From a virus: a DNA stretch of 64,000 bases. Location of the stretch: the IMG/VR virus record IMGVR_UViG_3300050821_002957, positions 271,192 through 335,191 of that record; one strand, given 5' to 3'. The translations under genes and the position numbers were made by a program. Shown here piece after piece: positions 10,472 through 42,892 of the stretch. How positions within the stretch are numbered: the first letter of the stretch is position 1; every line of letters starts with the position of its first letter. The notes beneath the pieces were generated by a model. The model did no database searches, was not told where the DNA came from, and saw nothing but the letters and a program-made list of their open reading frames with translations.

Positions 10472-11722
10472 CTAGAGACGCCCGGAACGGATCAGTTCGA
10501 GGGCCTGTTCTTTCGATTTGATGTGACCGGCAAGCTGCCCATTCTCGGCGGCGTCCAGGATTCGTTTGAAATCTGGTCCTGGCTTCATTCCAAGTGCCTT
10601 CAGATCATCCCCATTGACAAATTTTGCCGGATTCAAGTCTTCGGCCTTCATGTTGGCAAACATTTTTGACAACATCTGGAAAGCAGCGATATGGACGTGC
10701 TTGTCCTGAGCCTCTGTACGGCATCCATAGAGCTTCAAGGCGTCGGGGAACAGCTTCTCACGCATCAGGCGTTTCAACACGTCCAGCGTCGTTCCAGCCG
10801 TCACAGAACCGATTCTGGACTGAAGGTCGATGATGCCGGTAATCTGCTTGATCGTGTCGTTAAAAAACTTCAGACGTTTACCAATTTTTTCTGCGCTCCC
10901 TGAAGGCAACATGTACAACGCACCAGCCAAACCCAATGCTGGATTGATGTTGGTGCCGATGAACGAAAGTGTTGCCATCATCTGAGCGTAATCATACGGA
11001 GTCATGTGGGCAACTTCCGGCAGAACATGCTCTAAGATGCCGGTGTTGTTCATTCCCTTGATTGTCTTGTGAGCGTCATGACCCATTGCCTTGGTCAATT
11101 CCTCTGTTATGCGCTCTACGTCCATTTTCGCAATGTTCGGAGCGTGCGCCTGCATTGCCGCCAGTGTCTCTGGGTGGATCTCAAATCCGAGCTTCGCCTG
11201 AAAACGATGTGCCCGAAGCATCCGAAGATGATCCTGTGTAAAACGGTCGTTCGGATTGCCGACACATTTGATGAGGCCGTTTTTTGCATCGGCCTTGCCA
11301 CCATGAAAATCGATGATGTCACCAGTGAACGGGTCCATGTACATTGCATTGACGGTGAAGTCACGCCGGTTGGAATCTTGTTGTTGATCACGAGTGTATT
11401 CGACATCATCTGGACGCCGACCATCAGTGTACTTTCCATCTTTGCGGAATGTGGCAATGTCGATACCGTGGCAGACAACGACACCAAATGATTTTCCTAC
11501 GACACTTGTTCCTGGGAAAAGTTTGAGAACTTCTTCAGGTGTGGCGTCAGTTGCTACGTCAAAATCTTTTGGCTTGTGGCCGGTCAAAAAATCACGAACA
11601 CAACCGCCAGCGAGATAGCCGACAAAGCCGTGTCTGCGAAGCGTAGTGATTACGTCTTTGGCGTCGTCAAGCGTGCCATAGGTGGACTCCCGAAGGAGGG
11701 CGAATTGTGTAAATGAGAGCAC
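10472..11722 (-). CDS. cca: tRNA nucleotidyltransferase (CCA-adding enzyme)
   Basis: The pol-beta head motif of the CCA/poly(A) polymerase family is present (GYLAGGCVRDFLTGHKPKDFDVATDATPEEV). Length is 416 aa. Confidence 0.8.
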   Translation of the reverse strand: MLSFTQFALLRESTYGTLDDAKDVITTLRRHGFVGYLAGGCVRDFLTGHKPKDFDVATDATPEEVLKLFPGTSVVGKSFGVVVCHGIDIATFRKDGKYTDGRRPDDVEYTRDQQQDSNRRDFTVNAMYMDPFTGDIIDFHGGKADAKNGLIKCVGNPNDRFTQDHLRMLRAHRFQAKLGFEIHPETLAAMQAHAPNIAKMDVERITEELTKAMGHDAHKTIKGMNNTGILEHVLPEVAHMTPYDYAQMMATLSFIGTNINPALGLAGALYMLPSGSAEKIGKRLKFFNDTIKQITGIIDLQSRIGSVTAGTTLDVLKRLMREKLFPDALKLYGCRTEAQDKHVHIAAFQMLSKMFANMKAEDLNPAKFVNGDDLKALGMKPGPDFKRILDAAENGQLAGHIKSKEQALELIRSGRL

Positions 11723-14102: not shown

Positions 14103-14190
14103 TTGGTGGGACGGGTGTGAGTCGAACACACAGGGTTCCAAGGAACATCCGCTTTACAGGCGGCTCTCGCTCCCTACGAGACTACCATCC
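14103..14190 (-). tRNA. tRNA-Tyr (anticodon GTA), type II with a long variable arm, CCA encoded
   Basis: Hand fold: acceptor GGGATGG/CCGTCCC, anticodon loop CTGTAAA, variable-arm stem GTTCC/GGAAC, T-arm GTGTG-TTCGACT-CACAC, discriminator A, CCA. Confidence 0.6.
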
Positions 14191-14712
14191 CAAGTTTGAA
14201 TGATAGGGCAGGAACGGTTATACTAAAGGCTTAACAGAGTGCTACTGAAGCACGCCGCCGTTCACGCCCAAAGTATAATAATAGAGAGTCATAAAATTTG
14301 ATCTGTGACTCGTCCGGGTAACAACTTCATTCCGGCACCCAGTCACTTCAATATGTATACTAGCACTATTCTTGAGTGCTGTCAAGCTGCTATAGTGCTG
14401 GCAATCTTCTCAAGCTCAACAATGTCTGCTTCGGTAAGAGAGAAACTAAGCACACTATCAAGTAACTGCCATTCTACATCATGCTCAAACAGTGTTGTAT
14501 CGATGCCCTTGAACTTCGCCAAATGACAAAGCAACTTTCGACTCATTCGCATCAATACGGCACCTTGAAGACCAAGTAACCATAGATCCAGACATGCAGG
14601 ATCATGATGTATTCCCAGACAGTCGCCCACGGTTCTGGTGTGAACGACTGCATCAACAGCGTGAACAAAAGAATTTTGAAGACAGAACTTCGTATCTTAT
14701 CGACCGGAGTGT

Positions 14713-19674: not shown

Positions 19675-19762
19675 TGGCTGGAGGAGCAGGACTCGAACCT
19701 GCATATGAGCTTTCGCTACGACACATTAACAGTGTGCTGCCTTACCGTTAGGCGACCCTCCA
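19675..19762 (-). tRNA. tRNA with a GTT (Asn) anticodon loop but a long, type-II-like variable arm; CCA encoded
   Basis: Hand fold: acceptor TGGAGGG/TCCTCCA, D-arm GCCT-AACGGTA-AGGC, anticodon loop CTGTTAA, an 18-nt variable region with an AGC-GAAA-GCT hairpin, T-arm GCAGG-TTCGAGT-CCTGC, then G and CCA. Confidence 0.45.
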
Positions 19763-19783
19763 ATATAAATGGATGTATGGCAA

Positions 19784-20217
19784 ATTCACAGAAAGTAAAA
19801 GAATGGCGCAAAAGAACCAAACAACGAATGATTGATGCAATGGGTGGATCGTGTGTAGTCTGTGGCTACACTCGTTGTTCAGCCTCATTAGGATTTCATC
19901 ATCTCGATCCGAGCAAGAAACATTTTGGTTTCGGAGGTCTTCGTGCCAACCCAAAATCTTGGGAGAAGATCAGCGAAGAACTACGAAAATGCGTTCTGAT
20001 TTGCAATCGTTGTCACGGAGAAGTACATGATGGTATAACCATCATTCCCATTAATGCAAAACGGTACGACGAAAGTTATGCTCAGAAATTTGGAAGAAGA
20101 AAAATGGCTCCGGGGACAGGACTCGAACCTGTAACATCCGCTTTAACAGAGCGGCGCTCTACCATTGAGCTACCCCGGAATGAGGTTGCTTCTTTGGTTA
20201 GGGTCACGCCGTTTTAA
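19784..20217 (+). CDS. HNH homing endonuclease
   Basis: Motifs CVVCGY...HHLDP...CNRCHGEVHDG are present. The gene lies between two tRNA genes and its 3' end overlaps the antisense tRNA at 20105-20179. Confidence 0.65.
20105..20179 (-). tRNA. tRNA-Asn (anticodon GTT), CCA encoded
   Basis: Hand fold: acceptor TCCGGGG/CCCCGGA, D-arm GCTC-AATGGTA-GAGC, anticodon arm CCGCT-CTGTTAA-AGCGG, T-arm ACAGG-TTCGAGT-CCTGT, discriminator G, CCA. Confidence 0.65.
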
Positions 20218-20260
20218 AGCGTGACCTACGTATTGTAGGTTGTGTAAGTCATCACAATTC

Positions 20261-20268
20261 TATTTATA
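20261..20268 (-). promoter_or_regulatory. TATAAATA late-promoter-like motif within a conserved 28-mer
   Basis: The 28-mer GTCATCACAATTCTATTTATACCACGGT recurs at 22351-22378. Both copies lie upstream of minus-strand tRNA genes. Confidence 0.35.
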
Positions 20269-20520
20269 CCACGGTGTTTTGAAACTGTCAACCTTTTATT
20301 TTACATTGACTCCGATCATTCGTCATACCGATCCATGAATTCTCTAACGTCATCAATACGAATTACAAACAAAATGATGAACAGAGGACCGCCGATGCAA
20401 AATAACACTCTGGCAGTTTGCTCCATGTCCATTATCATCTCAAAGAACCCCGCAAGAAAAAGCAAAATGAATGCCAGCCGCCAGCAATTCTTCCAGTTGA
20501 TCTTCACATAATCGAACATG

Positions 20521-21456
20521 TTACACCACCAAATCTTTGGGCAAGCGTTCAGTCCGTGCAATCTCTTCTGCGGTCGGTTTGATCACATTGCCGACGATTC
20601 CACCGAAGATTGCTCCGACCGTATCTGTGTCGCCACCGACCTCAATGAAGCTGTTGATGCAGGATGCGAACGAAAGACCTTTTTCCAAAGCCTGATGTGC
20701 CTGCCATAATGCAAAAGGAACTGTATCGACTGCCGTTACTTCTTTGCCGTTTCCAACCTTGCCAATTATTCCCCAATTGGTTTCGTTAAATGCACCCTCA
20801 CTGGCGACCCATTCGATGCGATCACGAAGTTCCCCTGATGGTGTGTATTTGATGATGTTTAACCAGAAGTCTTCCTCAGGTCTTCCATAAGTTACGTTTG
20901 CTGCGGCTATGGCGACCGCTATCGAACCGGCAATAGCATCGACGTGATAATGGGTCACTTCGGCAGATAGACGTGCTTCTTGCGCTACAAGGCCATAGTC
21001 AGGTCCAAAGTGTGCGCCAATGACAGCATCACGCATTGCCGATCCGTTGCCTTTTGAGCCGATGCCCGGTCCCCACCAATTCTTGCTATGCTCAAGCCAA
21101 TTGTCGGAGTCATAGCTATAGGTCGTCAACAAACCACGAGTGCCACGCCCATAACCACGCTGAGGATCAACATGAAAATTACGAGCTAATTCCTGAGCGA
21201 GTTCGAGTTGATTGATCGTATTGAATCGGTACAAAGTTCTAACGACACCAATACCGACATGTGTGTCGTCTGTCCAGGGATAGAGAATGTCAATTTTTGT
21301 GATCCCTCGTTCAGTGGCGACATTCCCAGCCTTGTAATATTCAGCCGGAAGAATCTTCATCTGATTTTCGCCTGCTGCATCGCCTACCGACAAGGCAAGA
21401 AGCGAAAGATAAGTTTCTTTCTTTTTGTACTGCATCGGAGCAAGACAGGGTGTCAT
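20521..21456 (-). CDS. ADP-ribosylglycohydrolase (ARH/DraG family)
   Basis: Several ARH motifs are present: LSVGDAAGE, PWTDDTHVG, GNGSAMR and GGDTDTVGAIFGGIVG. Confidence 0.8.
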   Translation of the reverse strand: MTPCLAPMQYKKKETYLSLLALSVGDAAGENQMKILPAEYYKAGNVATERGITKIDILYPWTDDTHVGIGVVRTLYRFNTINQLELAQELARNFHVDPQRGYGRGTRGLLTTYSYDSDNWLEHSKNWWGPGIGSKGNGSAMRDAVIGAHFGPDYGLVAQEARLSAEVTHYHVDAIAGSIAVAIAAANVTYGRPEEDFWLNIIKYTPSGELRDRIEWVASEGAFNETNWGIIGKVGNGKEVTAVDTVPFALWQAHQALEKGLSFASCINSFIEVGGDTDTVGAIFGGIVGNVIKPTAEEIARTERLPKDLVV

Positions 21457-21463
21457 ATTTCAC

Positions 21464-21676
21464 CTACTTGGTCGGTTTGTGCCAACCATATGCATGTTGA
21501 GCGGTCTTTGGCTCATATCCTAGAACGAGGTTACAGTTGGCAATACATTCGTCAAGATGACCGTCGCCTTTGTGAGTTGGATCTTGCAAAAATTGAAGTG
21601 CATGACGAATTGCTTGGCGTGCAGATCGAGCTTCGTTTTGCAGACGTTGAATTTGTTCTTCTATAGTTTCTACCAT
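21464..21676 (-). CDS. small hypothetical protein
   Basis: 70-aa ORF. Confidence 0.3.
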   Translation of the reverse strand: MVETIEEQIQRLQNEARSARQAIRHALQFLQDPTHKGDGHLDECIANCNLVLGYEPKTAQHAYGWHKPTK

Positions 21677-21999
21677 GTCTTAGTGTTTGTCCTCCACCAC
21701 CCAAACAGATAGCATACCACGGCGTAGATAATTGTCCATTCACCAGCAGTGAGAAAGAATGTGCCGCATCCTATCGTAGGAGTATCGAATGACAAGTTTG
21801 CAAAGAAGGCTTTTCCAAGACAAACAGCGAGACCGCCAAAATAAACAGCGGCAAAGAAGAGTTCACTTGGTCGAGGTACGGTGATATTGGGCCACTTCAT
21901 ATCCACAATGTTCGCACCGATCACCAGGGAAGTCAAGTTTTGCGCCTTGATGTAGATGAGCTTCTTGATTTGGATTGTCGGGCGTGCAGATAGTTTCAA
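21670..21999 (-). CDS. small membrane protein
   Basis: Hydrophobic helices in 109 aa. Confidence 0.3.
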   Translation of the reverse strand: MKLSARPTIQIKKLIYIKAQNLTSLVIGANIVDMKWPNITVPRPSELFFAAVYFGGLAVCLGKAFFANLSFDTPTIGCGTFFLTAGEWTIIYAVVCYLFGWWRTNTKTW

Positions 22000-22101
22000 T
22001 GCCGGTAAACTTTGTGTTTGGATCGAAACTGAAATTTGGATCTAATTTGTAAATCATAGCAAGAAGTATATAGCACTTCTAAGCCAATGAAATTAAGGTT
22101 T

Positions 22102-22175
22102 TGGCAGGAGTGGTAGGAGTTGAACCCACGCTAAAGGTTTTGGAGGCCCTTGTGCTACCGTTACACCACACTCCT
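22102..22175 (-). tRNA. tRNA-Trp (anticodon CCA)
   Basis: Hand fold: acceptor AGGAGTG/CACTCCT, D-arm GTGT-AACGGTA-GCAC, anticodon loop CTCCAAA, T-arm GTGGG-TTCAACT-CCTAC, G and CCA. Confidence 0.6.
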
Positions 22176-22191
22176 GTGATGAGGAAGATTA

Positions 22192-22267
22192 TGGCCGCTG
22201 GTTCCAGTTACGCTCTGGACTCTTCTGTTCTTCAGACAGACGCTTTCACTAGATTAGCTTACCAGCG
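22192..22267 (-). tRNA. tRNA-Phe-like (anticodon loop CTGAAGA) with a non-canonical T-loop
   Basis: Acceptor CGCTGGT/ACCAGCG, then G and CCA. The anticodon arm is TCTGT-CTGAAGA-ACAGA. The T-arm is TCCAG-AGCGTAA-CTGGA and lacks the TTC motif. Confidence 0.45.
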
Positions 22268-22288
22268 GTGTTGTGCTTTGAGAGAGGC

Positions 22289-22327
22289 GCAACGACTGCT
22301 GGTTTCAACAGCAGTCGTTGCGCCCCG
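22289..22327. other. perfect 16-bp inverted repeat (hairpin with a 7-nt loop)
   Basis: It reads GGCGCAACGACTGCTG-gtttcaa-CAGCAGTCGTTGCGCC. It lies between the conserved TATAAATA 28-mer and the tRNA-Phe-like gene. Confidence 0.7.
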
Positions 22328-22369
22328 GTGGTAAATCGCCAATATGTAAAAGTGCGTGTCATCGTAATT

Positions 22370-22377
22370 CTATTTAT
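22370..22377 (-). promoter_or_regulatory. TATAAATA late-promoter-like motif (second copy of the conserved 28-mer)
   Basis: GTCATCGTAATTCTATTTATACCACGAT lies upstream of the tRNA-Phe-like and tRNA-Trp genes. Confidence 0.35.
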
Positions 22378-22553
22378 ACCACGATCATTGCTGTCTGTCA
22401 ACAATGAAATTCTGTGTCGTGAACAAATGGTTCCTCGGATGGGAGCGGTATCATAGGCAGTGATAATCCCACCTGATTCCCCGGCTCACGACAAAATAAC
22501 AAGGCCACTCGGAAGTAGCCAAGATCCCTTGGTACACATGGTAACAGGGTCTA

Positions 22554-22793
22554 CTATTCGTGAATGATTTCGCCTATCACTCGTTCTGGCATTAGCTTCT
22601 CAGGCGGGACACTTCCATTCATAAGGTCAACCATGCGCTGTGCTTGAGCTAGAGTGTGAAAGGTTCCATACGGTGTGACATGTGCTCCACCGTCGCCAGA
22701 ACCTACTTCAACCAAATCATACTTCGTTTCCGTCTTCGGCCAAATCTCGTACCTAATTTTCTGTTCGGTCGATGACTTGTTGACGAATTCCAT
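22554..22793 (-). CDS. small hypothetical protein
   Basis: 79-aa ORF. Confidence 0.3.
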   Translation of the reverse strand: MEFVNKSSTEQKIRYEIWPKTETKYDLVEVGSGDGGAHVTPYGTFHTLAQAQRMVDLMNGSVPPEKLMPERVIGEIIHE

Positions 22794-23735
22794 AAATGTG
22801 TGTCGGTGTTAAGGCACACCGAGCAGGCCGCAAGATTTTGTTACTGATCAATACCTGCTAAGAACCAGGATGTTTAAGAACTTATCCTTGAGAAAGCTCC
22901 GTTGTAGGCGACACGGCTTCCCTGAGAGTCAGAGTTACTTCAGCTACTCCTGATGGTATGGTGACTCAGCTACCCCGACTTTTTAGTGATCGGCTCCATT
23001 CCGGTATTCGATTCGGCAACGACAGATTCCGACTCTGCAACGTTCTGCTTCTTTTCGATGAGAAGCAAAAATCATAAAAACTCAAAATGACCAGAGGACC
23101 CTCAGCAGTGAGCGCAGATCCCACGTTCGCATACAAGCGTCAATGACAAGTTTTATCCAACGAGCCATTGTCTTGTACGTTGGCTCACCGTCGAGTGCGC
23201 TATCCAGTTCGACACACTCACCTGCGGTTCTAATGACTTTCGTCTCCCGCTGGCCCTATCATCGCCTCACACTTCCGTGTGTTTCAACATCCTGGTCATC
23301 TCAAGGGCGACAGCCTTGCGGCCACGACACCCCACCAGCTTTTTTACTGTGTACTGATCACAGGGAGAGCTAGAACGACTTTCGCCGCCCCACACCTACC
23401 GCCACTGGTCGAGACTTCTACATGCGACCAGCCATGTCGCTAAAAGGGGCACTACGAGTAGATGCCCTCCACCACGTTGTTCTTTTACGTCCAACAACGA
23501 AACGACTTAGACCCATAACTCTGACCGGAAATCAGAACTATGATCCACACTCCCCGGTGGAAGCCGGGAAGACTTTGAATGTGAACTAATAATTGACAAG
23601 GGATTATAGCCCCGAAGGACCATTTCACCATTTGAAAGATAACCCTCATCTTCCGGCTCACATCACGAAATACGGCTGCTTGTCCTACCATTAGACGACC
23701 GGATCTGCCGACGCTTTACGCCATGAGAGCAGATT

Positions 23736-24060
23736 GGACTCCGACCGGGACTCGAACCCGGATTTCTCAGCTAGACGAATGACGGAGCATAGTGCGCTCT
23801 ACGTCGGAATTGGTGGATACACATGGGAATTGAACCCATAACCTTCTCGGTGCAAGCGAGTTGCTCTCCCAATTGAGCTAGTGACCCATAACTTTGTACC
23901 TCGAACAAATAAGTATCAGAGGGCTTGTCATTAGGAAAGATAACCCTCTAAATCCGGCTCGAAGCACTACAAAACTTTTGGTGGATCGCCAGGGATTTGA
24001 ACCCTGCTGTTATCCTCGGTGCAAGCGAGGCAAACACCCCAAGCATTTCCGCAACCCACA
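23736..24060 (-). pseudogene. three degenerate tRNA-like elements (tRNA pseudogenes or fragments)
   Basis: One element has a T-arm CCGGG-TTCGAGT-CCCGG with the D-arm GAGC/GCTC but an unfoldable anticodon region. A second has an Ala-like loop CTTGCAC with an acceptor of only 5 of 7 pairs. A third has a clean 3' half (anticodon arm, T-arm, GCGATCC-A-CCA) with no matching 5' acceptor strand. Confidence 0.35.
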
Positions 24061-24278
24061 TTTAAATAGCACGAACAAATAGCGGTAGAAGACTGATAGG
24101 AGACTGCATTTAACGCACCCTCGGATTGGATACCGATCAGATACGCTTCAAACTCCCCTCCTCAAAGTTACGGGCGTCTTTTACTACACGTACAACGAAC
24201 TGCTTTGTGCCCACCAAATACTGCCGGTGAACTTTGTCATGGTTAGGTAACCTTCCAACCAGCGGCTCGTGCTATGTC

Positions 24279-24340
24279 GAAACAGAACGAAACAGAACGA
24301 AACAGAACGAAACAGTGCTCAACGATGCGAAACAGTGCGT
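24279..24340. repeat. 10-bp tandem repeat (CGAAACAGAA)x3 followed by two CGAAACAGTG units
   Basis: Directly visible as cgaaacagaacgaaacagaacgaaacagaacgaaacagtgctcaacgatgcgaaacagtgcg. Confidence 0.8.
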
Positions 24341-24421
24341 TAGGTCAAAGATCGTATTCTTTATCTATACACGCTACAGTTTGCTTTCAATAGCGCCTTT
24401 GACTCTTTCAGTCTAACATCC

Positions 24422-24691
24422 TTAGTATGGGATGTCAAGTGCCACGAACATAATAATTTCATCTTCGTCTTTTTTGCGACGAGCAGCAGCTTCTTTCTCA
24501 GTCAACACCAGAGGAGACGGATTGCCTTCGACTTTGATATTCACTGATAAACCTTGCTGGAGCCATCCAGATACTTCATCGGGCGGCGTCTCGACAAATG
24601 CCTGATCACACGCCTTCTGAATTTCGACATTGCGTATTGCAGCAAGCGGTTTGCCGGATGGCGTCATGATGTCTACGTTACAAAGAAGCAT
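24422..24691 (-). CDS. hypothetical protein
   Basis: 89-aa ORF. Confidence 0.3.
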   Translation of the reverse strand: MLLCNVDIMTPSGKPLAAIRNVEIQKACDQAFVETPPDEVSGWLQQGLSVNIKVEGNPSPLVLTEKEAAARRKKDEDEIIMFVALDIPY

Positions 24692-24693
24692 GT

Positions 24694-25023
24694 TTATCTA
24701 CCAACTGCTACGGCTGAAATTCCGATAACACTTTCAATATTGTACAACAGACGAGCGGCTTCTGACAATTCTGAGCCGGTGCGATCCAGTGTAGCATGGA
24801 CGCCGGTCGGATCAGAATCAGCTTTTGAGTCATCGTCTTCTCCGGTGTATTGAAGAACATCTAACACCGTTTTTAAGCGACGAGCCAACATCCTAGCCAA
24901 TTGCAAATTTGCATCCGAAGAAGATTGAATTGTCGTTGGTTCGTGGTTCTTTTCTGCTGGACCGTCAACAACTAATCCAAACTTCTCTAATAAAACTTTG
25001 TTTCCTTTCTTTCCTGTATTCAT
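24694..25023 (-). CDS. hypothetical protein
   Basis: ORF trimmed to the internal Met (MNTGKKGNK) so that it does not overlap tRNA-Ile. Confidence 0.3.
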   Translation of the reverse strand: MNTGKKGNKVLLEKFGLVVDGPAEKNHEPTTIQSSSDANLQLARMLARRLKTVLDVLQYTGEDDDSKADSDPTGVHATLDRTGSELSEAARLLYNIESVIGISAVAVGR

Positions 25024-25029
25024 AATTTT

Positions 25030-25105
25030 TGGTTGGCCCAGATGGAATCGAACCATCAACCTCAGAATTATCAGTTCTGCGCTCTACCAATTGAGCTATG
25101 GGCCA
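25030..25105 (-). tRNA. tRNA-Ile (anticodon GAT), CCA encoded
   Basis: Hand fold: acceptor TGGCCCA/TGGGCCA, D-arm GCTC-AATTGGTA-GAGC, anticodon arm CAGAA-CTGATAA-TTCTG, T-arm GATGG-TTCGATT-CCATC, discriminator A, CCA. Confidence 0.7.
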
Positions 25106-34899: not shown

Positions 34900-35700
34900 C
34901 ATGACCGACCTGGAGTGCCAGGATCTTCCCCGTATCGAAGAACGGAGCACACTGCGCTCGACGTTCAAACTAATTGGAAGAGAGGACTTCACTTATAGTT
35001 GTTCCAACACTCCGACGTTGCAACATCGAAGCCAAGCTGACTTTCCAGCTTCCGTAGTTGACTATCTAGAATTCGTCTAACTCTGCGGAGTCGAACCGCT
35101 CTCGCCCCTCAACGGGGCTGTGCTTCCGTTACACTAAGTGAGCAACTACGTGTCTTCTCTCTTCCAAAAATCCACGGTCACTGCTTGCCTATGGAACCCT
35201 CATCACATTCGACATCTCTGCGATTTGAGGTAGCACTTTCCAGGTGCCCTTTATACCCTTACCGACATGCAGCGACCACTAAAAATTCCGGCTGGACTGC
35301 GCTGAACGAGGCCGGTTCGCTATTTCCTGTTCAACTAGATGATGGTAGCTTACCACCATCACGTCGGCTCTTACGCCGCAAGATTGTGCGCTATTACACT
35401 TCACATGGTGTTTAGTCACAATCCAGCCTAATCGACGAACGGAGCATACTGCGCTCTACGTTCAAAATCCGTAGTGTCCTGCCATTAGACGACCGGAACG
35501 TTACGTTCCGAGAGGGACTCGAACCCCCATTTCCACTATCGGTGCCGTCCTGCCATTAGACGATTTTCAGAGGAGTCGAACCCCATTTGCACCTTCTCCG
35601 CATCTTGGAGGAAGCTACGTGAGTGCTTCACCTATGGGTTTACCAGTGCTCTTTCGAGTTGGTTTCCATGTCTGCCGTCGCACGTCGGTATCAGCCTTTC
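34900..35700 (-). pseudogene. array of degenerate tRNA-like fragments
   Basis: T-arm-like hairpins occur (GGGGG-TTCGAGT-CCCTC and GCGG-TTCGACT-CCGC). The motifs GTCGTCTAATGGCAGGAC and ACGTAGAGCGCAGTATGCTCCGT are shared with the 23.6-23.8 kb region. No complete cloverleaf could be folded by hand. Confidence 0.3.
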
Positions 35701-36106
35701 GGTCCTAACACTCCAAGAAAACTTAAATGTGATGGCCCTTCTACGCCAGTCCTTTTCACGTCTTCTCTAGATCGCAGGCTCTCTCGTCTCAAGGACCATC
35801 ACAAAACAAATTGGTAGCAGGTAACCCTTCGTGCCTTGAAGGATTTTACAGAGTGCTCGTCCAACCTTGCTACCAAAAAATCTACATTTGGCGAAAAACT
35901 GGACCATGCCATTTCCAGGCTTGGCGGCGACTCATCTTGTCTCGACTTCGGGATCGCCCTTCACCCTATCCCATGTTCTTCCGGTTTCTATCCCGGCCTG
36001 TTAAGCACCAAACAAAACTGCGACTTCCAGTCTTTGTAATCCTTTATGGTCGCTGTCCGCTCTGGCTGCTCTGCGCTGCCCTCTCAACAAACCCAGGATA
36101 ACAAAC

Positions 36107-36595
36107 CTACGCTTCCATGTCAATAGCTACATCATCTTTTTTTGAATTATTTTCGACGATCCAGGGAACCTCGATTTTGACCTGTTTTTCTCGTTCCAAC
36201 CAAAACCACGCCATCTTGGTAAGACCGTAGACATGGTTCGTAGGATCGCCACCATTGAGCCTACAGAGCGCTATAGCGAATCGATTTGCATGGACCCAGG
36301 CCCAACCCCATTTTTCGGCACCGGCAAGGTGGAGGGCATTGAGATCCTCAACAGGCCGATCCAAAATAACCAACATATTTTCGCATTGATCAGGTGGGAG
36401 AGAATGGATGCGCTCGCCACAAATAAATTTTGCATGTTCTGAAACTTCAACCGTGGGATCGTTCAAGAATTTAACAGCGGCTTCATTGTCTTCAGCGACA
36501 AACCCCCAAATACCGAAGCCATCGCAAACGGGACAAGTATCAGTTCCTCGAATGCGTCCCGAGCCTTTACATAAATCGCAGGGTCCATAGGTCAT
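36107..36595 (-). CDS. hypothetical protein with a DnaJ-type CxxCxGxG zinc-finger N-terminus
   Basis: The N-terminus carries CDLCKGSGRI and CPVCDGFGI. Confidence 0.35.
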   Translation of the reverse strand: MTYGPCDLCKGSGRIRGTDTCPVCDGFGIWGFVAEDNEAAVKFLNDPTVEVSEHAKFICGERIHSLPPDQCENMLVILDRPVEDLNALHLAGAEKWGWAWVHANRFAIALCRLNGGDPTNHVYGLTKMAWFWLEREKQVKIEVPWIVENNSKKDDVAIDMEA

Positions 36596-37824: not shown

Positions 37825-38898
37825 TTAGCGTTGCAAGTGACGTTGATTGACTATTGCACGGTACGGAAATTCTTTATTGATTCCCAACCAGTTGCACCAT
37901 GCCTCGAAAGAACCAGCATTGTGGGTATCGAGTGCAATGAGTCCGTCTTGCGGTGCTCTCGGATCGAATAGAAGCTGACGCCCGACACGAGCCATATCCG
38001 GCACATTGTCAGAGTAAGCCTTCCAGTATTCAGGACACCAGTCGAGTGCATCACTTACAACAGATGGTACACCTTCGGCAATTCCATCAGCAGTGACCAT
38101 ATTGAACGATTCGGTGTAACTGCCCTGAATCAACAGGTGCATCTTTCTGACGACATCCCTAAACTGCGGCCATGTTGCCCATCCAAGTTCTTTCAGTGTG
38201 AAACCAGGAATGCCCTGAGTCATCGCACGAACAGAATTCAAAATTGTGTTTCCGCCGCCTTCGGTCCTTCCACCACTGACCCAAAATTCGGTATCAACTT
38301 TGAGTTCTTCGTGAAGTTCTAGTGCTGCACCGGCTGCGCTCATCAAGTTCTTTTGTGGACGAGTTGCACCAAATGCACCGATCTTCAGAACGCCACCGCC
38401 ATAGACAGGCTTGTTCGGTGACACAGTATAGTCGAGATAGTACATGTTCGGTAGGTAGGTGCAGGGAGCTTGATACGCCTGACGGACCCACAGAATAAAC
38501 TTGGAAGAATTTCCTGCGATGTTAAAGTTCAACGAACCCAATTCCAGGTCGATGTACTCACGCATCAATTTTACGCCATTTGTGTCGGCCTGTAAGAATC
38601 CGACATTGCTGTGACAATTTACAGCAAACTGAACATTGTGATACTTATAGGTAATCGCCTGTAACTCTCTCGTAGGAATCCAGGGCGCAGCGATTTCGAC
38701 GTGCGTCACTGTAGGATTCTTGTCAAGAAATGCATCAAGGGCTGCGGAGTTCAAGATTGGGAGCACAGTGCATTTGATTCCGTGCTTGTTTAAAATCTTG
38801 GCGATGTTGAGGGCTGCTACACCAAGCCCTATGTGGGAAATTCCCGCAAAGGCCGCAAAGTTTTTGTAGCAGAGAACTAGATGAACATTAGGTTGCAT
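37825..38898 (-). CDS. hypothetical protein, possibly a glycosyltransferase
   Basis: 357-aa ORF near the sugar-metabolism theme. No firm motif was found, so the call is speculative. Confidence 0.25.
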   Translation of the reverse strand: MQPNVHLVLCYKNFAAFAGISHIGLGVAALNIAKILNKHGIKCTVLPILNSAALDAFLDKNPTVTHVEIAAPWIPTRELQAITYKYHNVQFAVNCHSNVGFLQADTNGVKLMREYIDLELGSLNFNIAGNSSKFILWVRQAYQAPCTYLPNMYYLDYTVSPNKPVYGGGVLKIGAFGATRPQKNLMSAAGAALELHEELKVDTEFWVSGGRTEGGGNTILNSVRAMTQGIPGFTLKELGWATWPQFRDVVRKMHLLIQGSYTESFNMVTADGIAEGVPSVVSDALDWCPEYWKAYSDNVPDMARVGRQLLFDPRAPQDGLIALDTHNAGSFEAWCNWLGINKEFPYRAIVNQRHLQR

Positions 38899-39012: not shown

Positions 39013-39255
39013 TCATCCAATGTGAGCCGATACCACATTTCCGTTGACAACTTTAAAATTTATCCGAAAAGCGTTGTGGTCATTGTTGAGTGGTTGAAGC
39101 CCTGAATGTTCAACTTTTACGATGAAACCTGCCTGCTGTGCTTTGCTTTGTGCTTCGTCGATTCTCATCCCGACATATTGTGAAACGTCCATAATTTTAT
39201 ACCTATTGTGACTGACAGGCTTTCCGCCCCGAATTTTTGGTGTTAGGAAATCCAT
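39013..39255 (-). CDS. small protein with a PASTA/BamE-like segment
   Basis: It contains YVGMRIDEAQSKAQQAGFIVKV. Confidence 0.25.
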   Translation of the reverse strand: MDFLTPKIRGGKPVSHNRYKIMDVSQYVGMRIDEAQSKAQQAGFIVKVEHSGLQPLNNDHNAFRINFKVVNGNVVSAHIG

Positions 39256-39557
39256 TATTCCTCGTCGTTAATATCTAGCCAATCGGGAGCTTCCCAGGTT
39301 CGGTGAATAACTCTGACGTAGATTACACCTTCTTCTTCGTCAAGATTCCATTCAAGATCATCGCCAACTTCTATGTTCAATTCACGAACTAATCCATCTG
39401 GCAGTGTCATCATTCCGTTCGGTTGTATGACACAGGCATATGACCTATTACCAAATCCAGAGTTCACCCAGACACCTAAAATGGGTGGTTCATCATTATC
39501 TTCAGTCGGCTCTTCGTCAAAGTCTTCCGGTTCTAGCTCTGCGTAATCTTCAGCCAT
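39255..39557 (-). CDS. AbrB/SpoVT (MazE-like) swapped-hairpin domain protein with an acidic N-terminus
   Basis: It contains MMTLPDGLVRELNIEVGDDLEW. Confidence 0.35.
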   Translation of the reverse strand: MAEDYAELEPEDFDEEPTEDNDEPPILGVWVNSGFGNRSYACVIQPNGMMTLPDGLVRELNIEVGDDLEWNLDEEEGVIYVRVIHRTWEAPDWLDINDEE

Positions 39558-40681
39558 TTTCTTCCTACCCGAATCACTGACATTTCTGGCAACGGTTCTT
39601 TGAGTCTTGGATCGATAACTACACTACCATTTACATTTACGGCTCCGCTCTTCACCAGACGACTGCCCTCTGAGACCGAAGATGCCAAACCCATCAGCAC
39701 CAAGACTCGATCCAGGCGTGTATTGACCGAATGAAAAACCGGAATTCTTACAACTGGAATATCGACCGGCGCTTCACGATCTGAAAATCTCTTTGTCCAT
39801 TCAATTTCAGCGGTGTCTGCTTTTGGTTCGTCATGTAACCAATGAACAATTCGCCATGCCAAATATTTCTTAGATTGAAATGGTTGAGGATGCCAGCCAC
39901 ATTTATTTGGAAACAGAACCTCTTGCCATTGGCGCATTACATCATCAGCAATCGACATAACTTTGCTGAACATTTCAAATGGTTCATCCAGCAAACCAAT
40001 GTGATTACCGAACGACTTGGACATCTTTCGACCGTCCGTACCAAACAACAAAGGAACCGTCGCAATAACCTGAGGTTTCTCACCACGATCATGCATGTAC
40101 ATCCGGCCCATCAGCATGTTGTAAAATTGATCGTTGCCGCCAAGTTCAATATCTACACCTTCTCTGAAAGAGTCATATGCCTGAAGCATGGGGTATAACA
40201 TCTCATGCATAAAGACCGGAGTGTTTGTTACCTTGCGTTCTTTAAAATCGTCACGGCCACCGATTTGACTGAGGGTGAAATGGGACATGAGACGAATTAC
40301 ATCTTGCATCTTCATCTCGTCAAACCATTCGGCATTCTTTTTGACGACGGTTTTGGTTCGATCCAAAATTTTGAAAGCCTGTGTCATATAGCTCCAGGCG
40401 TTCGTATTGATTTCATCGTCAGAAAGCGCAGGCCGAAGCTGATTGCGCCCGGTCGGATCACCAATCGATGCTGTGGTGTTGCCGACGATCATCACAATGG
40501 TGTGCCCAGCATCCTGAAATTCACGCATCTTTTTCAACAGCACAGCATGACCAAGATGTAGGTCTGGTGCTGTGGGATCGAATCCGGCTTTCACACGTAA
40601 CGGATGACCTGACGCAATAAGAGCATCAAACTCCTTTTCGTCGAGGAGTTGCGTAAACCCGGATTTGAGTGATTGTTGCAC
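39533..40681 (-). CDS. tyrS: tyrosyl-tRNA synthetase
   Basis: It has the class I HIGH motif in a TyrRS context (GFDPTAPDLHLGH), the KMSKS motif and a C-terminal S4-like domain (LVKSGAVNVNG). Confidence 0.85.
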   Translation of the reverse strand: MQQSLKSGFTQLLDEKEFDALIASGHPLRVKAGFDPTAPDLHLGHAVLLKKMREFQDAGHTIVMIVGNTTASIGDPTGRNQLRPALSDDEINTNAWSYMTQAFKILDRTKTVVKKNAEWFDEMKMQDVIRLMSHFTLSQIGGRDDFKERKVTNTPVFMHEMLYPMLQAYDSFREGVDIELGGNDQFYNMLMGRMYMHDRGEKPQVIATVPLLFGTDGRKMSKSFGNHIGLLDEPFEMFSKVMSIADDVMRQWQEVLFPNKCGWHPQPFQSKKYLAWRIVHWLHDEPKADTAEIEWTKRFSDREAPVDIPVVRIPVFHSVNTRLDRVLVLMGLASSVSEGSRLVKSGAVNVNGSVVIDPRLKEPLPEMSVIRVGRKWLKITQS

Positions 40682-40704: not shown

Positions 40705-41022
40705 TTAATCGTCAACCACTTTACCGCCTCGGATCACTTGTGCATTGAACGTGACTTTGGCAGTTCCGGCGAAAGGACTCATTGGTTGCGGTCGGCCTTC
40801 AGAATCGGTAAAGACGGGAAGCTGCCGTACAACTTTTTCGGGGATATCAAGTGTCGTAAAAAGTTCGTCAAAAATTTTCTGGATGCCTTTGTTCAACTCT
40901 TCTCTGCTGGCACCGAAAATTTCTTTCTGAAATTTTCCTGGTAGGGCAACATTGGCGACGAATTCCTGGACACCATCTTTGATTCCATAGTCACTAAAAC
41001 GAACAAGTATCACTTCTCTCAT
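40705..41022 (-). CDS. hypothetical protein
   Basis: ORF trimmed to MREVILVRFSDYG. It may have an alpha/beta sandwich fold. Confidence 0.3.
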   Translation of the reverse strand: MREVILVRFSDYGIKDGVQEFVANVALPGKFQKEIFGASREELNKGIQKIFDELFTTLDIPEKVVRQLPVFTDSEGRPQPMSPFAGTAKVTFNAQVIRGGKVVDD

Positions 41023-41102
41023 AACTGCATTTAGACAATAAAAAAAGGAGCAGATCCTAAGACCCACTCCCTTTCTAGACATAAGACTGAACAAAAACTA
41101 TT

Positions 41103-41930
41103 TTAGGCGACCTGAGTGATCTGCCAGAAATCGTCTGCAAGATTTCCATCAAGCAAGTACTCGAACGGCATGTAGAAGTAACCCTTTGCGCCCCAGAAAG
41201 GACCCCAGGAATTACGGACGATGAAAGTACGAGGCGGTGCGCCATTGACTGTCGTGTTGGTTGCATTGTAGCCGACAACCAATACAGCATGTCCACCCAA
41301 TAGATTTTCAGAAGCAGCAGGCATCGGAACAATTCCGGTTGCTGCTACTTGTGCGCTTTCAAAAGAATCATAGACGCTGAATCCGATCACGAACGGGAAA
41401 CCCGATGCGAGGCAGGACTGCATTGCGTTCAATTCTTGTGGAACACTTGCGTATTGAATGGCCTTGCTCTTCAAAGCAGTCGTATAGCAAGAGGCCGGTG
41501 GCTTCTCAGTGAACTTTGAAGTGTTATAAGGCCATGTTGCTTCCGGTGGGACTCCCCAGGTTGCTACGGCTTTGATGCCATCGCTAAGAGTTGCGCCGGA
41601 ATCCGAAGATACAGTGCCTTCTTCGACACGCTCATTGTAATAAATGAACAGGCGAGATGGCATGAAAATCGGAAGTTTCAATTTAATCTGATCGTATTCA
41701 ATTGCGCCTGCGATAGCATTTGCAGTGCATGATCCGAGTTGCTGCTGGTTGTAACAGGCAGGACATCCTGAACGCATGTCTACGAAAGTAGCGATCTTTT
41801 CAGGTGCAATCCGTGCTGCGAAGATTCTTTTGCGATGGTCAGGAAGAGACGGCTTCCAGCCATATTTCTTGCCGAGTGGAGAGAGTTTGTTGCTCATGCT
41901 GCTATTTAGCAGCATAGAAATCGTTGTCAA
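41103..41930 (-). CDS. papain-like (C1 family) cysteine peptidase
   Basis: The catalytic Cys lies in QQQLGSCTANAIAGAI and the His in LGGHAVLVVGYN. A FIVRNSWGPFWGAKGYFYMPFEYL segment follows. Confidence 0.7.
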   Translation of the reverse strand: MTTISMLLNSSMSNKLSPLGKKYGWKPSLPDHRKRIFAARIAPEKIATFVDMRSGCPACYNQQQLGSCTANAIAGAIEYDQIKLKLPIFMPSRLFIYYNERVEEGTVSSDSGATLSDGIKAVATWGVPPEATWPYNTSKFTEKPPASCYTTALKSKAIQYASVPQELNAMQSCLASGFPFVIGFSVYDSFESAQVAATGIVPMPAASENLLGGHAVLVVGYNATNTTVNGAPPRTFIVRNSWGPFWGAKGYFYMPFEYLLDGNLADDFWQITQVA

Positions 41931-41933
41931 CTA

Positions 41934-42314
41934 TCAACAACAACCCACCCCACGATGATCATAACAATAGTCTTCCGGTTTTGGATTTAAAATATCATCC
42001 AAAACTGCCCAGGCCATCGCCACTCGGAACCAACAATGTTCGGCACCGATAATTTCCATGCTCTCAAATAGCGGCGGCGAGTCCAGACGAAAAGTAATCG
42101 CCACTCGGACAGGAACAAAGAAACGTCTTTTGTCAACCCCAAGTTCCGTTGCCAAATCCATCAAAGTTTTCTTGATGGTCTCGGTCGTGAAATCATCTTT
42201 GATGGATAAGAGCGCATTTTTGGTTCGCTCCAACACCAAAACAGATTCTTGGATTGTTCCTTTTTTGGCCGGGATCAACAACAACGGATCGTATTCTTTC
42301 AGACCGGCGCTCAT
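41934..42314 (-). CDS. stand-alone protein resembling the GluRS C-terminal subdomain (YqeY/GatB_Yqey-like)
   Basis: LATELGVDKRRFFVPVRVAITFRLDSPPLFESMEIIGAEH resembles the FMPLRVALTG...LLGKE segment of GluRS. Confidence 0.4.
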   Translation of the reverse strand: MSAGLKEYDPLLLIPAKKGTIQESVLVLERTKNALLSIKDDFTTETIKKTLMDLATELGVDKRRFFVPVRVAITFRLDSPPLFESMEIIGAEHCWFRVAMAWAVLDDILNPKPEDYCYDHRGVGCC

Positions 42315-42892
42315 AATACCAGCTTTCGTTCGATTTCTGCCGCCATACGAAGATCAGTAATTCGCACAATCGGCAACACCCAATTCTGTGTTTCAAGTTT
42401 GTACTTGTTCCGGCGAGCTTCTTCCCACTTGCTCAAATCGGTCACGTTGTCAATCCGGTCACAACCTTTGATGCGGCGAGGACGAGCATCGGCGTGTGTC
42501 AACGTCATATAATATTCATCGTCGGGCCGTTTTGCACGAGCTACCAATTCGCCTGTAATTGGATTGAACGACGGCAATTCTTTGGACAATACGATAATAT
42601 CTTCGTACATTTCTTGCCCGAACAGATTCACTATTACCGAAGTTGGAACATAACAATCTTCGACGATATCATGCCCAAGTCCCAACGCTACATGCATAGC
42701 GTCGGCGTAACCATAAGTCATCGCAACGTCGAATGCAACACGGCGAACGTGCTCAAAATACCGTTCACCAGTCAGACGGCGGCTCTGCTTACGATGCGCT
42801 TCCTTGACCAACCAATACATGCGCTGGACATACGACAGTTCATCAGCATTCAAATACTCAGCCATCGTATTGAAAAATTCTTTACGGTTCAT
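42311..42892 (-). CDS. HD-domain phosphohydrolase (RelA/SpoT-type (p)ppGpp hydrolase-like)
   Basis: The HD motif context is RYFEHVRRVAFDV...HVALGLGHDIVED. The promoter TTGACA-N18-TAGCGT lies upstream. Confidence 0.6.
   Translation of the reverse strand: MNRKEFFNTMAEYLNADELSYVQRMYWLVKEAHRKQSRRLTGERYFEHVRRVAFDVAMTYGYADAMHVALGLGHDIVEDCYVPTSVIVNLFGQEMYEDIIVLSKELPSFNPITGELVARAKRPDDEYYMTLTHADARPRRIKGCDRIDNVTDLSKWEEARRNKYKLETQNWVLPIVRITDLRMAAEIERKLVL

What the first reader, a model, noticed from the sequence alone, without database searches (positions are those of the whole stretch)
39533..40681. Phage-encoded tyrosyl-tRNA synthetase together with its own tRNA-Tyr and a CCA-adding enzyme
A complete TyrRS (HIGH motif, KMSKS motif, S4 domain) is unusual in bacteriophages. 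The same 64 kb also encodes tRNA-Tyr(GTA) at 14.1 kb and a CCA-adding tRNA nucleotidyltransferase at 10.5-11.7 kb. That suggests the phage secures a tyrosine decoding supply. One possible reason is host anticodon nucleases or tRNA-depleting defences that target tRNA-Tyr or related species. Another is translational bias during infection.
Basis: partly seen in the sequence, partly recalled or inferred. Interest (0 to 1): 0.6.

Follow-up and report, generated by a model that had tools for sequence, protein, structure and literature searches.

The report
Huge-phage tyrosyl-tRNA synthetase and tRNA-Tyr
A roughly 404-kb T4-like phage carries an intact bacterial-type tyrosyl-tRNA synthetase, its own structurally unusual tRNA-Tyr and a tRNA 3'-end repair enzyme; this repertoire is already known from huge phages, so it is a solid but fairly ordinary example.

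Summary
ORF 39533-40681 (- strand, 382 aa) is a complete TyrRS. It scores 286 bits on TIGR00234 (cut-off 114), has HLGH and KMSKS, and keeps every conserved active-site column. Its AlphaFold model (pLDDT 93) overlays full-length Thermus TyrRS bound to tRNA-Tyr.

It belongs to a clade found so far only on phage-like contigs, nested within Thermus-like bacterial TyrRS. The gene sits in a block that is syntenic in relatives. It is unrelated to the TyrRS of GAP32-like jumbo phages.

The tRNA-Tyr (14104-14191, -) fails Rfam's general tRNA threshold. A covariance model built from 41 independent members of the same structural class scores it 93 bits. It carries G1-C72, A73, a long variable arm and GUA, which fit the enzyme's S4-like domain.

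The nucleotidyltransferase (10472-11722) is most like CCA-adding enzymes. All eight phage tRNAs already encode CCA, so it is more likely a repair enzyme.

The three genes are 2-28 kb apart among other tRNAs and are not a tyrosine-specific module. Huge phages with aaRS, tRNAs and CCA-adding enzymes were described in 2020. A counter-defence role is plausible (Septu and retron-Eco7 cleave tRNA-Tyr) but untested. Verdict: new member of a known kind.

The parts
39533..40681 (-). Tyrosyl-tRNA synthetase, 382 aa, bacterial Thermus-like ('TyrZ') subtype. It has a Rossmann catalytic domain, a helical anticodon-binding domain and a C-terminal S4-like domain.
14104..14191 (-). tRNA-Tyr (GUA), 85 nt plus an encoded CCA. 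Features: G1-C72, A73, long variable arm, 5-bp D stem with the 7-nt loop UAGGGAG, and T loop UUCGACU.
14357..14385 (-). Sigma-70-like promoter match TTGACA-17-TAGTAT with a TG extension (10 of 12). It lies about 165 nt upstream of the tRNA-Tyr 5' end. This is a consensus match only.
10472..11722 (-). Class II tRNA nucleotidyltransferase, most like CCA-adding enzymes. It lacks the HD domain seen in its nearest bacterial relatives, and motif D reads QDHLR.
39255..39557 (-). AbrB/MazE-fold ORF of 100 aa that overlaps the TyrRS 3' end by 25 nt. It is a conserved neighbour of TyrRS in relatives.
40705..41094 (-). Small ORF of about 125-129 aa with unknown function. It is a conserved neighbour of TyrRS in relatives.
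41103..41930 (-). Papain-like (C1) peptidase, part of the conserved block around TyrRS.
41934..42314 (-). Stand-alone homologue of the GluRS C-terminal anticodon-binding domain (Pfam Anticodon_2). It is not found in the related loci examined.
42311..42892 (-). HD_4 protein, resembling the RelA/SpoT hydrolase domain, part of the conserved block.
37825..38898 (-). Glycosyltransferase-like protein of 357 aa, 74-87% identical in relatives, marking the downstream end of the conserved block.
19675..25105 (-). Cluster of other phage tRNA genes, all with encoded CCA: Asn x2, Trp, a Phe-like one, Ala x2 and Ile.

Best explanation
The ORF encodes a working bacterial-type TyrRS that a lineage of T4-like huge phages (about 370-405 kb) acquired from bacteria and has kept as a stable gene.

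Proposed mechanism: during infection the enzyme activates tyrosine with ATP, using the HIGH and KMSKS motifs. It then transfers tyrosine to tRNA-Tyr, which it recognises through the GUA anticodon (helical domain), the long variable arm (S4-like domain) and the G1-C72/A73 acceptor end.

The phage supplies a matching tRNA-Tyr of its own. A general tRNA nucleotidyltransferase restores damaged CCA ends. Together with the other phage tRNAs, this forms a dispersed translation-maintenance repertoire. It would keep Tyr-tRNA-Tyr available when the host supply falls through shut-off, host degradation or defence.

Shown here: gene identity, intact motifs, the fold, clade conservation, synteny, and the identity elements of the tRNA.

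Inferred: enzymatic activity, which tRNAs are charged in vivo, and the selective reason.
For: - The TyrRS passes the curated equivalog threshold.
- It keeps 103 of 124 columns that are at least 97% conserved in the 105 nearest bacterial TyrRS. These include HLGH, KMSKS, D35, T37, D75, Y163, Q167, D170, D184 and Q185.
- The AlphaFold model has pLDDT 92.8. It matches full-length T. thermophilus TyrRS bound to tRNA-Tyr with TM 0.82.
- Fifteen sequences at 51-69% identity form one clade (76 of 100 NJ bootstraps) inside Thermus-like bacterial TyrRS.
- Clade members examined lie on phage contigs carrying UvsX/UvsY, gp44, DNA polymerase B and tail tube genes.
- The block HD_4 - peptidase C1 - small ORF - TyrRS - AbrB-like ORF - small ORF - 357-aa protein is kept in at least five relatives.
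- The gene's G+C (0.459) equals that of the window (0.462).
- The tRNA-Tyr folds as a cloverleaf, scores 93 bits on an independent class model, and has G1-C72, A73 and a variable arm. These are the bacterial identity elements read by the S4-like domain (PMC5370408).
- The CCA-enzyme clade occurs on the same 374,748-bp contig as a TyrRS clade member.
- Huge phages are known to carry tRNAs, aaRS and CCA-adding enzymes (PMC7162821).
Against: - No activity data exist.
- The host is unknown, so neither host supply nor host tRNA-Tyr could be compared.
- Only 64 kb of about 404 kb was seen, so other aaRS and tRNAs may exist and change the picture.
- TyrRS, tRNA-Tyr and the CCA enzyme are not linked or co-transcribed.
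- In the relatives, no tRNA-Tyr lies within 10 kb of TyrRS.
- The CCA enzyme is below the NCBIfam cut-off and its motif D is QDHLR rather than EDxxR.
Confidence: 0.62

Rival explanations
1. Specific counter-defence. The host, or hosts in the phage's range, carry a nuclease that destroys tRNA-Tyr, such as Septu/retron PtuAB acting on the variable arm or a colicin-E5-like anticodon nuclease. The phage answers with a resistant or abundant tRNA-Tyr, its own synthetase to charge that tRNA, and end repair.
For: - tRNA-Tyr is a proven defence target, and phage tRNA-Tyr is a proven countermeasure (PMC11555353 and PMC13096335).
- The phage tRNA-Tyr has an atypical D arm and its own variable arm.
- A good sigma-70-like promoter match precedes it.
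- In three relatives an RNA ligase (PF09414 + PHA02142) lies next to or within about 600 nt of TyrRS.
- Other RNA-care genes lie nearby: an HD_4 hydrolase, Ro60/Rsr and the CCA repair enzyme.
Against: - The window itself has no homologue of that RNA ligase.
- The ligase is absent next to TyrRS in four other contexts.
- The same tRNA-Tyr class occurs in viral contigs with no TyrRS in the few kb of flanking sequence held for each locus.
- No defence system or host is known.
- The tRNA set is not restricted to Tyr.
Confidence: 0.2
2. Codon or amino-acid demand compensation. The phage needs more Tyr decoding capacity than the host offers.
For: This is the classical explanation for phage tRNAs, and it is mentioned in the discussion of PMC13096335.
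Against: Tyr makes up 3.56% of 15,558 codons, and TAT/TAC (292/262) is balanced. One GUA tRNA reads both codons, so codon bias cannot select for it. The host is unknown, so a difference in demand cannot be excluded.
Confidence: 0.1
3. The TyrRS homologue has a role other than aminoacylation. Examples are RNA chaperone or splicing cofactor activity like the mitochondrial CYT-18, dinucleotide polyphosphate synthesis, or charging of a tRNA-like RNA.
For: TyrRS paralogues with such roles exist (1y42 CYT-18 is among the structural matches). The window also holds tRNA-like RNAs of unknown function.
Against: All catalytic and tRNA-binding columns are kept under strong conservation. There is no extra domain; CYT-18 relies on insertions that are absent here.
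Confidence: 0.05
4. Passenger or artefact: a recently captured host gene with no function, or bacterial DNA joined to a phage contig.
For: Some 'phage' database records with TyrRS are really bacterial DNA: H1 from Acinetobacter and H4 from Pseudomonas flanks.
Against: - The same protein occurs on independent assemblies of 404,282, 405,631 and 178,905 bp.
- Phage genes lie on both sides of it.
- Synteny is conserved in relatives.
- It is only 47% identical to the nearest bacterial sequences.
Confidence: 0.03

Closest known systems
Translation-gene repertoires of huge phages (Al-Shayeb et al. 2020, Nature 578:425; PMC7162821)
   Same: The genome exceeds 200 kb and carries several tRNAs, an aaRS 'distinct from but related to' bacterial ones, and a CCA-adding enzyme. 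That paper's model figure lists aaRS and CCA-adding enzymes explicitly.
   Different: Only one aaRS is seen in this 64-kb window. The phage is T4-like (UvsW/X/Y, gp46/47). The specific TyrRS clade and the tRNA-Tyr class were not taken from that paper, and I could not check whether they appear in its tables.
TyrRS of GAP32/Rak2-like jumbo phages (Cronobacter phage GAP32 gp131, Yersinia fHe-Yen9-04, Serratia BF, Erwinia Eneladusvirus)
   Same: A complete phage-encoded TyrRS with an S4 domain in a myovirus of about 350 kb.
   Different: It is only 26-27% identical. The GAP32 enzyme is of the E. coli/Listeria-like TyrS subtype (420 aa) and serves as a distant outgroup in the tree. The two are independent acquisitions.
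Thermus thermophilus TyrRS (PDB 1H3E, 9SDF) and other 'TyrZ'-type bacterial TyrRS (A. baumannii 6BQY, H. pylori 6BYQ)
   Same: These are the best sequence and structure matches, with the same three-domain build and the same motifs. Asp246 aligns with Tth Asp259.
   Different: The window enzyme is 382 aa against 408-432 aa, because its helical anticodon-binding domain is shorter by about 9 residues or more. The clade has specific substitutions: Q196M in all 15 members, and position 68 is variable where bacteria have Asp.
Phage tRNA-Tyr as counter-defence (T5 against retron-Eco7; T6 against Septu)
   Same: A phage-encoded tRNA-Tyr(GUA) with its own variable arm, preceded by a promoter-like site.
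   Different: T5 and T6 are not reported to carry their own TyrRS (from my own knowledge). Here no defence system, no host and no expression data are known.

Membership tests
Bacterial-type tyrosyl-tRNA synthetase (class Ic aaRS; TIGR00234) | HIGH signature in the Rossmann fold | tested here: met
   HLGH at residues 42-45. It is invariant in 15 clade members and in 105 bacterial homologues.
Bacterial-type tyrosyl-tRNA synthetase (class Ic aaRS; TIGR00234) | KMSKS loop | tested here: met
   KMSKS at residues 219-223, invariant.
Bacterial-type tyrosyl-tRNA synthetase (class Ic aaRS; TIGR00234) | Tyrosine- and adenylate-binding residues (B. stearothermophilus D38, T40, D78, Y169, Q173, D176, D194, Q195) | tested here: met
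   D35, T37, D75, Y163, Q167, D170, D184 and Q185 all sit in fully conserved columns. The mapping to B. stearothermophilus numbering comes from my own knowledge of that enzyme.
Bacterial-type tyrosyl-tRNA synthetase (class Ic aaRS; TIGR00234) | Whole-protein score above the curated equivalog cut-off | tested here: met
   285.9 bits against a cut-off of 113.8, covering model positions 15-398 of 406.
Bacterial-type tyrosyl-tRNA synthetase (class Ic aaRS; TIGR00234) | C-terminal S4-like domain that binds the long variable arm | tested here: met
   Pfam S4 at 6.5e-8 over residues 322-358. The model overlays full-length Tth TyrRS bound to tRNA with TM 0.82.
Bacterial-type tyrosyl-tRNA synthetase (class Ic aaRS; TIGR00234) | Aminoacylation of tRNA-Tyr | not testable with these tools
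   This needs an enzyme assay or complementation.
Bacterial (class II) tRNA-Tyr | GUA anticodon in a 7-nt loop with U33 | tested here: met
   The loop is CUGUAAA.
Bacterial (class II) tRNA-Tyr | G1-C72, A73 and a long variable arm | tested here: met
   The acceptor is GGGAUGG/CCGUCCC with discriminator A. The variable arm has a 4-bp stem, GUUC/GAAC by the MFE fold. The identity rules are taken from PMC5370408.
Bacterial (class II) tRNA-Tyr | Rfam RF00005 tRNA model at gathering score | tested here: not met
   It is not reported at gathering. The best clan hit is tRNA-Sec at 29.8 bits. The same failure occurs for 5 of 6 other members of this class.
Bacterial (class II) tRNA-Tyr | Covariance model of the same structural class, built without the window | tested here: met
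   Model R1 was built from 41 sequences in which 18 of 25 pairs show double changes. It scores the window tRNA 93 bits, E 2e-23, over model positions 1-85.
Class II CCA-adding tRNA nucleotidyltransferase | Motif A (GGxVRD ... DxD) and motif B (RRD) | tested here: met
   GGCVRD, DFDVAT and RRDFTVNAM are present. They align with 1miv.
Class II CCA-adding tRNA nucleotidyltransferase | Motif D nucleotide template EDxxR | tested here: inconclusive
   The motif reads QDHLR. The Asp and Arg are kept and the Glu is replaced by Gln. The motif definition comes from my own knowledge.
Class II CCA-adding tRNA nucleotidyltransferase | Score above the NCBIfam equivalog cut-off | tested here: not met
   NF009814 scores 248.9 against a cut-off of 290. 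It is still the best model, ahead of PcnB at 192.6. JGI labels the protein 'poly(A) polymerase'.
Huge-phage translation repertoire (Al-Shayeb 2020) | Phage genome over 200 kb carrying tRNAs plus an aaRS | tested here: met
   Contigs are 404,282 and 405,631 bp. Phage hallmark genes are present. The window holds 8 tRNAs and a TyrRS.
Phage tRNA supplementation against tRNA-Tyr nucleases (T5/T6 type) | The host carries a tRNA-Tyr-cleaving defence and the phage tRNA rescues infection | not testable with these tools
   The host is unknown. Only the presence of the tRNA gene and a promoter-like site is shown.

The most novel reading that the evidence does not exclude
The phage TyrRS and its atypical tRNA-Tyr are a co-adapted pair. 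On this reading the remodelled D arm and the distinct variable arm let the tRNA escape host tRNA-Tyr nucleases, or host TyrRS. The phage enzyme then guarantees charging of that tRNA. Within this huge-phage family, RNA ligase, CCA repair and an HD hydrolase would complete a tRNA-Tyr rescue pathway.
Probability: 0.12. Interest if true: 0.65.

Novelty: new member of a known kind. Interest (0 to 1): 0.3.

Why it matters
If the enzyme is active, this lineage of about 400-kb T4-like phages has kept a private tyrosine-charging step over long evolutionary time. That adds a well-defined, conserved case to the list of translation functions that huge phages take over.

Its main practical value is as a test case. 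A compact TyrRS (382 aa) with a cognate tRNA of an unusual architecture could be tested in two ways. One is for resistance to Septu/retron-type tRNA-Tyr nucleases. The other is for orthogonality in genetic-code expansion.

A methodological point also follows. This class of tRNA-Tyr is missed by Rfam's general tRNA model at its threshold, so Rfam-based tRNA counts in phages and Patescibacteria can be too low.

Tried and rejected
- **Close relatives among isolates.** Megablast of 20 kb around the gene against 50,697 phage records gave no match. Blastn of the tRNA-Tyr against the same set gave no match.
- **Best 'phage' protein hits.** Acinetobacter phage MD-2021a (39.7% identity) and Pseudomonas phage Ostro turned out to be bacterial DNA, so I dropped them.
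- **RNA ligase in the window.** tblastn with the ligases that flank TyrRS in relatives found nothing.
- **Tyrosine codon bias.** None was seen.
- **Single-sequence search of IMG/VR for TyrRS relatives.** This failed. The alignment-based search worked.
- **Link between the unusual tRNA-Tyr class and TyrRS.** I rejected it. The viral loci holding that class, which span only a few kb each, encode no TyrRS relative. The tRNA-Tyr genes next to TyrRS in L138 and L156 are of the ordinary type.
- **A Patescibacteria host.** I considered it because every cellular match to the D-arm pattern is from that group or from unclassified MAGs, but I do not adopt it. One viral contig with the same class carries an alphaproteobacterial-type tmRNA and a Rhizobiales sRNA. 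The nearest named bacterial relatives of both TyrRS and the CCA enzyme are Acidobacteriota.
- **First tree attempt.** It timed out and was redone with a faster distance method.
- **Y RNA near the Ro60 gene.** Rfam gave no significant hit.
Full report
**Observation**

The ORF list shows a 382-codon frame at exactly 39533..40681 on the - strand, with a GTG start. It matches:
- Pfam tRNA-synt_1b (1.4e-55, residues 25-251) and S4 (6.5e-8, residues 322-358);
- the NCBIfam equivalog TIGR00234 tyrS at 285.9 bits against a cut-off of 113.8, covering model positions 15-398 of 406;
- PHROG 9270 'tyrosyl-tRNA synthetase'.

The translation carries HLGH and KMSKS.

ARAGORN finds seven tRNAs in the window, including tRNA-Tyr(gta) at 14104..14191 (-). 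Rfam adds an eighth at 22195..22267.

The ORF at 10472..11722 (-) has the three Pfam domains of class II tRNA nucleotidyltransferases.

The window is phage DNA. It encodes UvsW, gp47- and gp46-like nuclease subunits and a tail protein. The identical TyrRS lies on assemblies of 404,282, 405,631 and 178,905 bp.

**Is the synthetase intact?**

I aligned it with its 105 nearest bacterial homologues. Of the 124 columns that are at least 97% conserved, it keeps 103. The 21 differences are mostly conservative. None affects these residues:
- HLGH and KMSKS;
- D35 and T37 (the GFDPT stretch);
- D75 (the IGDPTG stretch);
- Y163, Q167 and D170;
- D184 and Q185.

From established work on the B. stearothermophilus enzyme, these correspond to the tyrosine- and adenylate-binding residues. 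That mapping is my own knowledge.

D246 aligns with Asp259 of the Thermus enzyme and is invariant.

An AlphaFold model built on 61 sequences has mean pLDDT 92.8 and pTM 0.84. Its best matches are full-length T. thermophilus TyrRS bound to tRNA-Tyr, with TM 0.82 over 422 aligned columns. All three domains are therefore present.

The protein is shorter than its relatives because the helical anticodon-binding domain lacks about nine residues relative to 6BQY.

**Where does it come from?**

The best solved relatives are A. baumannii 6BQY, T. thermophilus 1H3E and H. pylori 6BYQ, which belong to the 'TyrZ'-like subtype.

In the 5.8-billion-protein collection, fourteen proteins share 51-69% identity. 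After that, identity drops to about 47% with bacterial enzymes, and the named ones are Acidobacteriota/Bryobacterales.

In a neighbour-joining tree the 15 sequences form one clade (76 of 100 bootstraps) inside the bacterial TyrZ-type sequences. The GAP32 jumbo-phage TyrRS is a distant outgroup. It is only 26-27% identical and of the Listeria-like type. The two phage TyrRS groups are therefore separate acquisitions.

Clade members sit on phage contigs of 374,748, 145,869, 98,840, 40,110 and 31-41 kb. These contigs carry UvsX, UvsY, gp44, DNA polymerase B and tail tube genes.

Five relatives share a syntenic block: HD_4 hydrolase - papain-like peptidase - small ORF - TyrRS - AbrB-like ORF (overlapping the TyrRS stop) - small ORF - a 357-aa glycosyltransferase-like protein that is 74-87% identical.

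The gene's G+C equals that of the window. It is a long-resident, conserved phage gene, not a passenger or an assembly artefact.

**The tRNA-Tyr**

Rfam's tRNA model does not reach its threshold. Only the tRNA-Sec model matches, at 29.8 bits.

The sequence nevertheless folds by minimum free energy into a class II cloverleaf, with these features:
- a 7-bp acceptor stem with G1-C72, then U8;
- a 5-bp D stem (UCUCG/CGAGA) with the 7-nt loop UAGGGAG;
- the anticodon loop CUGUAAA;
- a variable arm with a 4-bp stem;
- the T loop UUCGACU;
- discriminator A73 and an encoded CCA.

A pattern taken from the D arm and anticodon loop found 11 viral contigs and 36 contigs in 185,579 species genomes. All 36 are Patescibacteria or unclassified MAGs. 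ARAGORN calls all of them tRNA-Tyr, apart from one match truncated at a locus end.

I aligned 41 of them without the window. On that alignment the cloverleaf is 95.8% paired, and 18 of 25 pairs show changes on both sides. No shuffle and no slid register comes near these values.

The covariance model built from that alignment scores the window tRNA at 93 bits, E 2e-23, end to end. D-stem pair 13-25 is C-G in most members, U-A in the window and A-U in L061.

Rfam at gathering also misses this class in 5 of 6 test loci. The miss reflects the class and does not mark a pseudogene.

The identity elements match what a bacterial TyrRS with an S4-like domain reads (PMC5370408).

A sigma-70-like site (10 of 12, with a TG extension) lies about 165 nt upstream. 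This is a consensus match only.

**The nucleotidyltransferase**

- Motifs A (GGCVRD, DFD) and B (RRD) are intact. Motif D reads QDHLR instead of EDxxR.
- The best solved relative is the B. stearothermophilus CCA-adding enzyme (7e-47).
- The best NCBIfam model is CCA tRNA nucleotidyltransferase, at 248.9 bits, below its cut-off of 290. PcnB scores 192.6.
- It belongs to its own clade at 44-72% identity, found so far on phage-like or unassigned contigs. The clade includes contigs of 370,131, 374,748 and 399,930 bp. The 374,748-bp contig is the one that also carries a TyrRS clade member.
- The nearest bacterial relatives, about 38% identical and again Acidobacteriota, have an extra HD domain that the phage enzyme lacks.
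- All eight phage tRNAs encode their CCA. The enzyme is therefore not needed to mature them and is best read as a 3'-end repair enzyme for any tRNA.

**Is it a tyrosine module?**

No. TyrRS is 25.3 kb from the tRNA-Tyr and 27.8 kb from the nucleotidyltransferase. The window holds tRNAs for at least five other amino acids. The nucleotidyltransferase is generic.

In relatives, no tRNA-Tyr lies within 10 kb of TyrRS.

In IMG/VR, 47 loci encode TyrRS relatives, many on contigs over 200 kb. Only two have tRNA-Tyr genes nearby: L138 at 60 and 850 nt upstream, and L156. Those tRNAs are of the ordinary type.

Tyrosine usage is unremarkable: 3.56% of codons, with TAT/TAC at 292/262.

**Why would the phage keep it?**

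The general frame is known. Huge phages carry up to 67 tRNAs, up to 15 aaRS, CCA-adding enzymes, and ligases for tRNAs cut by host defences (PMC7162821).

A defence-specific reading has real precedent. Retron-Eco7 PtuAB and Septu cleave the variable arm of tRNA-Tyr, and T5 and T6 escape by producing tRNA-Tyr (PMC11555353, PMC13096335).

Several hints point in that direction:
- an RNA ligase lies next to or within about 600 nt of TyrRS in three relatives;
- the HD_4 hydrolase is part of the conserved block;
- Ro60/Rsr is present in the window;
- the nucleotidyltransferase looks like a repair enzyme.

Against it, the window lacks that ligase, four other contexts lack it too, and neither the host nor any defence system is known.

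I therefore rank general maintenance of Tyr-tRNA-Tyr supply first (0.62), specific counter-defence second (0.20), and the other readings low.

**Verdict**

This is a new member, and a distinct clade, of a known kind of phage gene content. It has moderate-to-low surprise value and one testable and potentially useful feature: a compact TyrRS together with an atypical cognate tRNA.

Noticed in passing
window 25191-27056 (-): A Ro60/Rsr orthologue (TROVE plus vWA domains; NCBIfam Rsr at 440 bits, below its cut-off of 900; PHROG 850). It sits directly upstream of the tRNA cluster.
   Followed up: partly
window 35476-35583 (-), inside the ORF-free stretch 35080-36107: Two tandem tRNA-like modules in the permuted order T arm, capped acceptor-like hairpin, D arm. 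This is the layout of bacterial YrlA Y RNAs. Rfam YrlA aligns its positions 30-81 of 114 here, but only at 17.8 bits, E 1.2. The fold is no better than shuffles. A possible partner RNA for the Ro60 protein 8.4 kb away.
   Followed up: partly
L007-L084 (3 viral and about 70 soil/peat metagenome contigs): The 19-nt anticodon arm of the window tRNA-Tyr is shared exactly by a widespread family of tRNA-Tyr-like genes that ARAGORN does not call. Their D loop is UAAAGAU (no GG), their T loop is AGCGUUA, and ACCA is encoded. They always sit in tRNA arrays just upstream of a tRNA-Asp.
   Followed up: partly
L101-L136 (genome contigs): Among 185,579 species genomes, the tRNA-Tyr D-arm pattern CGTAGGGNGCGNGNG...CTGTAAA occurs only in Patescibacteria/CPR or unclassified MAGs (36 of 36). 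Rfam's tRNA model at gathering misses most of these genes.
   Followed up: partly
L001 11466-12536, L002 8949-10004, L089 8415-9398: In three related huge-phage contigs, an RNA ligase (PF09414 with a PHA02142 N-terminal OB domain) lies next to or within about 600 nt of TyrRS. It is absent from the window and from four other contexts.
   Followed up: yes
window 41934-42314 (-): A stand-alone 126-aa homologue of the GluRS C-terminal anticodon-binding domain (Pfam Anticodon_2, 7e-15), two genes upstream of TyrRS. No counterpart was found in the related loci.
   Followed up: partly
window 42311-42892 (-): An HD_4 protein resembling the RelA/SpoT hydrolase domain, a possible small alarmone hydrolase. 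It is conserved at 50-61% identity in the same block in relatives.
   Followed up: partly
window 19675-19762 (-) and 22195-22267 (-); L091 2547-2641: Odd tRNAs. One has the Asn GUU anticodon but an 18-nt variable arm (88 nt); a similar long Asn tRNA sits next to tRNA-Tyr on a 335-kb viral contig. A second tRNA, called only by Rfam, has a GAA anticodon loop and the non-canonical T loop GCGUAAC.
   Followed up: no
window 37825-38898 (-), 59274-60611 (+), 7808-8410 (-): A very conserved glycosyltransferase-like protein (weak Pfam GT4-conflict hit in relatives), a UDP-glucose dehydrogenase and a dUTPase/dCTP-deaminase-like protein. Together they may point to DNA or surface sugar modification.
   Followed up: no
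window 20521-21456 (-), 5722-6819 (-): An ADP-ribosylglycohydrolase sits between tRNA genes. Elsewhere there is a single-ring ClpB/ClpA-like AAA+ protein of 365 aa.
   Followed up: no
L138 3779-5805 (IMGVR_UViG_3300041955_000190): A viral contig on which a TyrRS (46% identical) is directly preceded by two ordinary-type tRNA-Tyr genes, at 850 and 60 nt upstream, and followed by six tRNA-Leu genes.
   Followed up: partly
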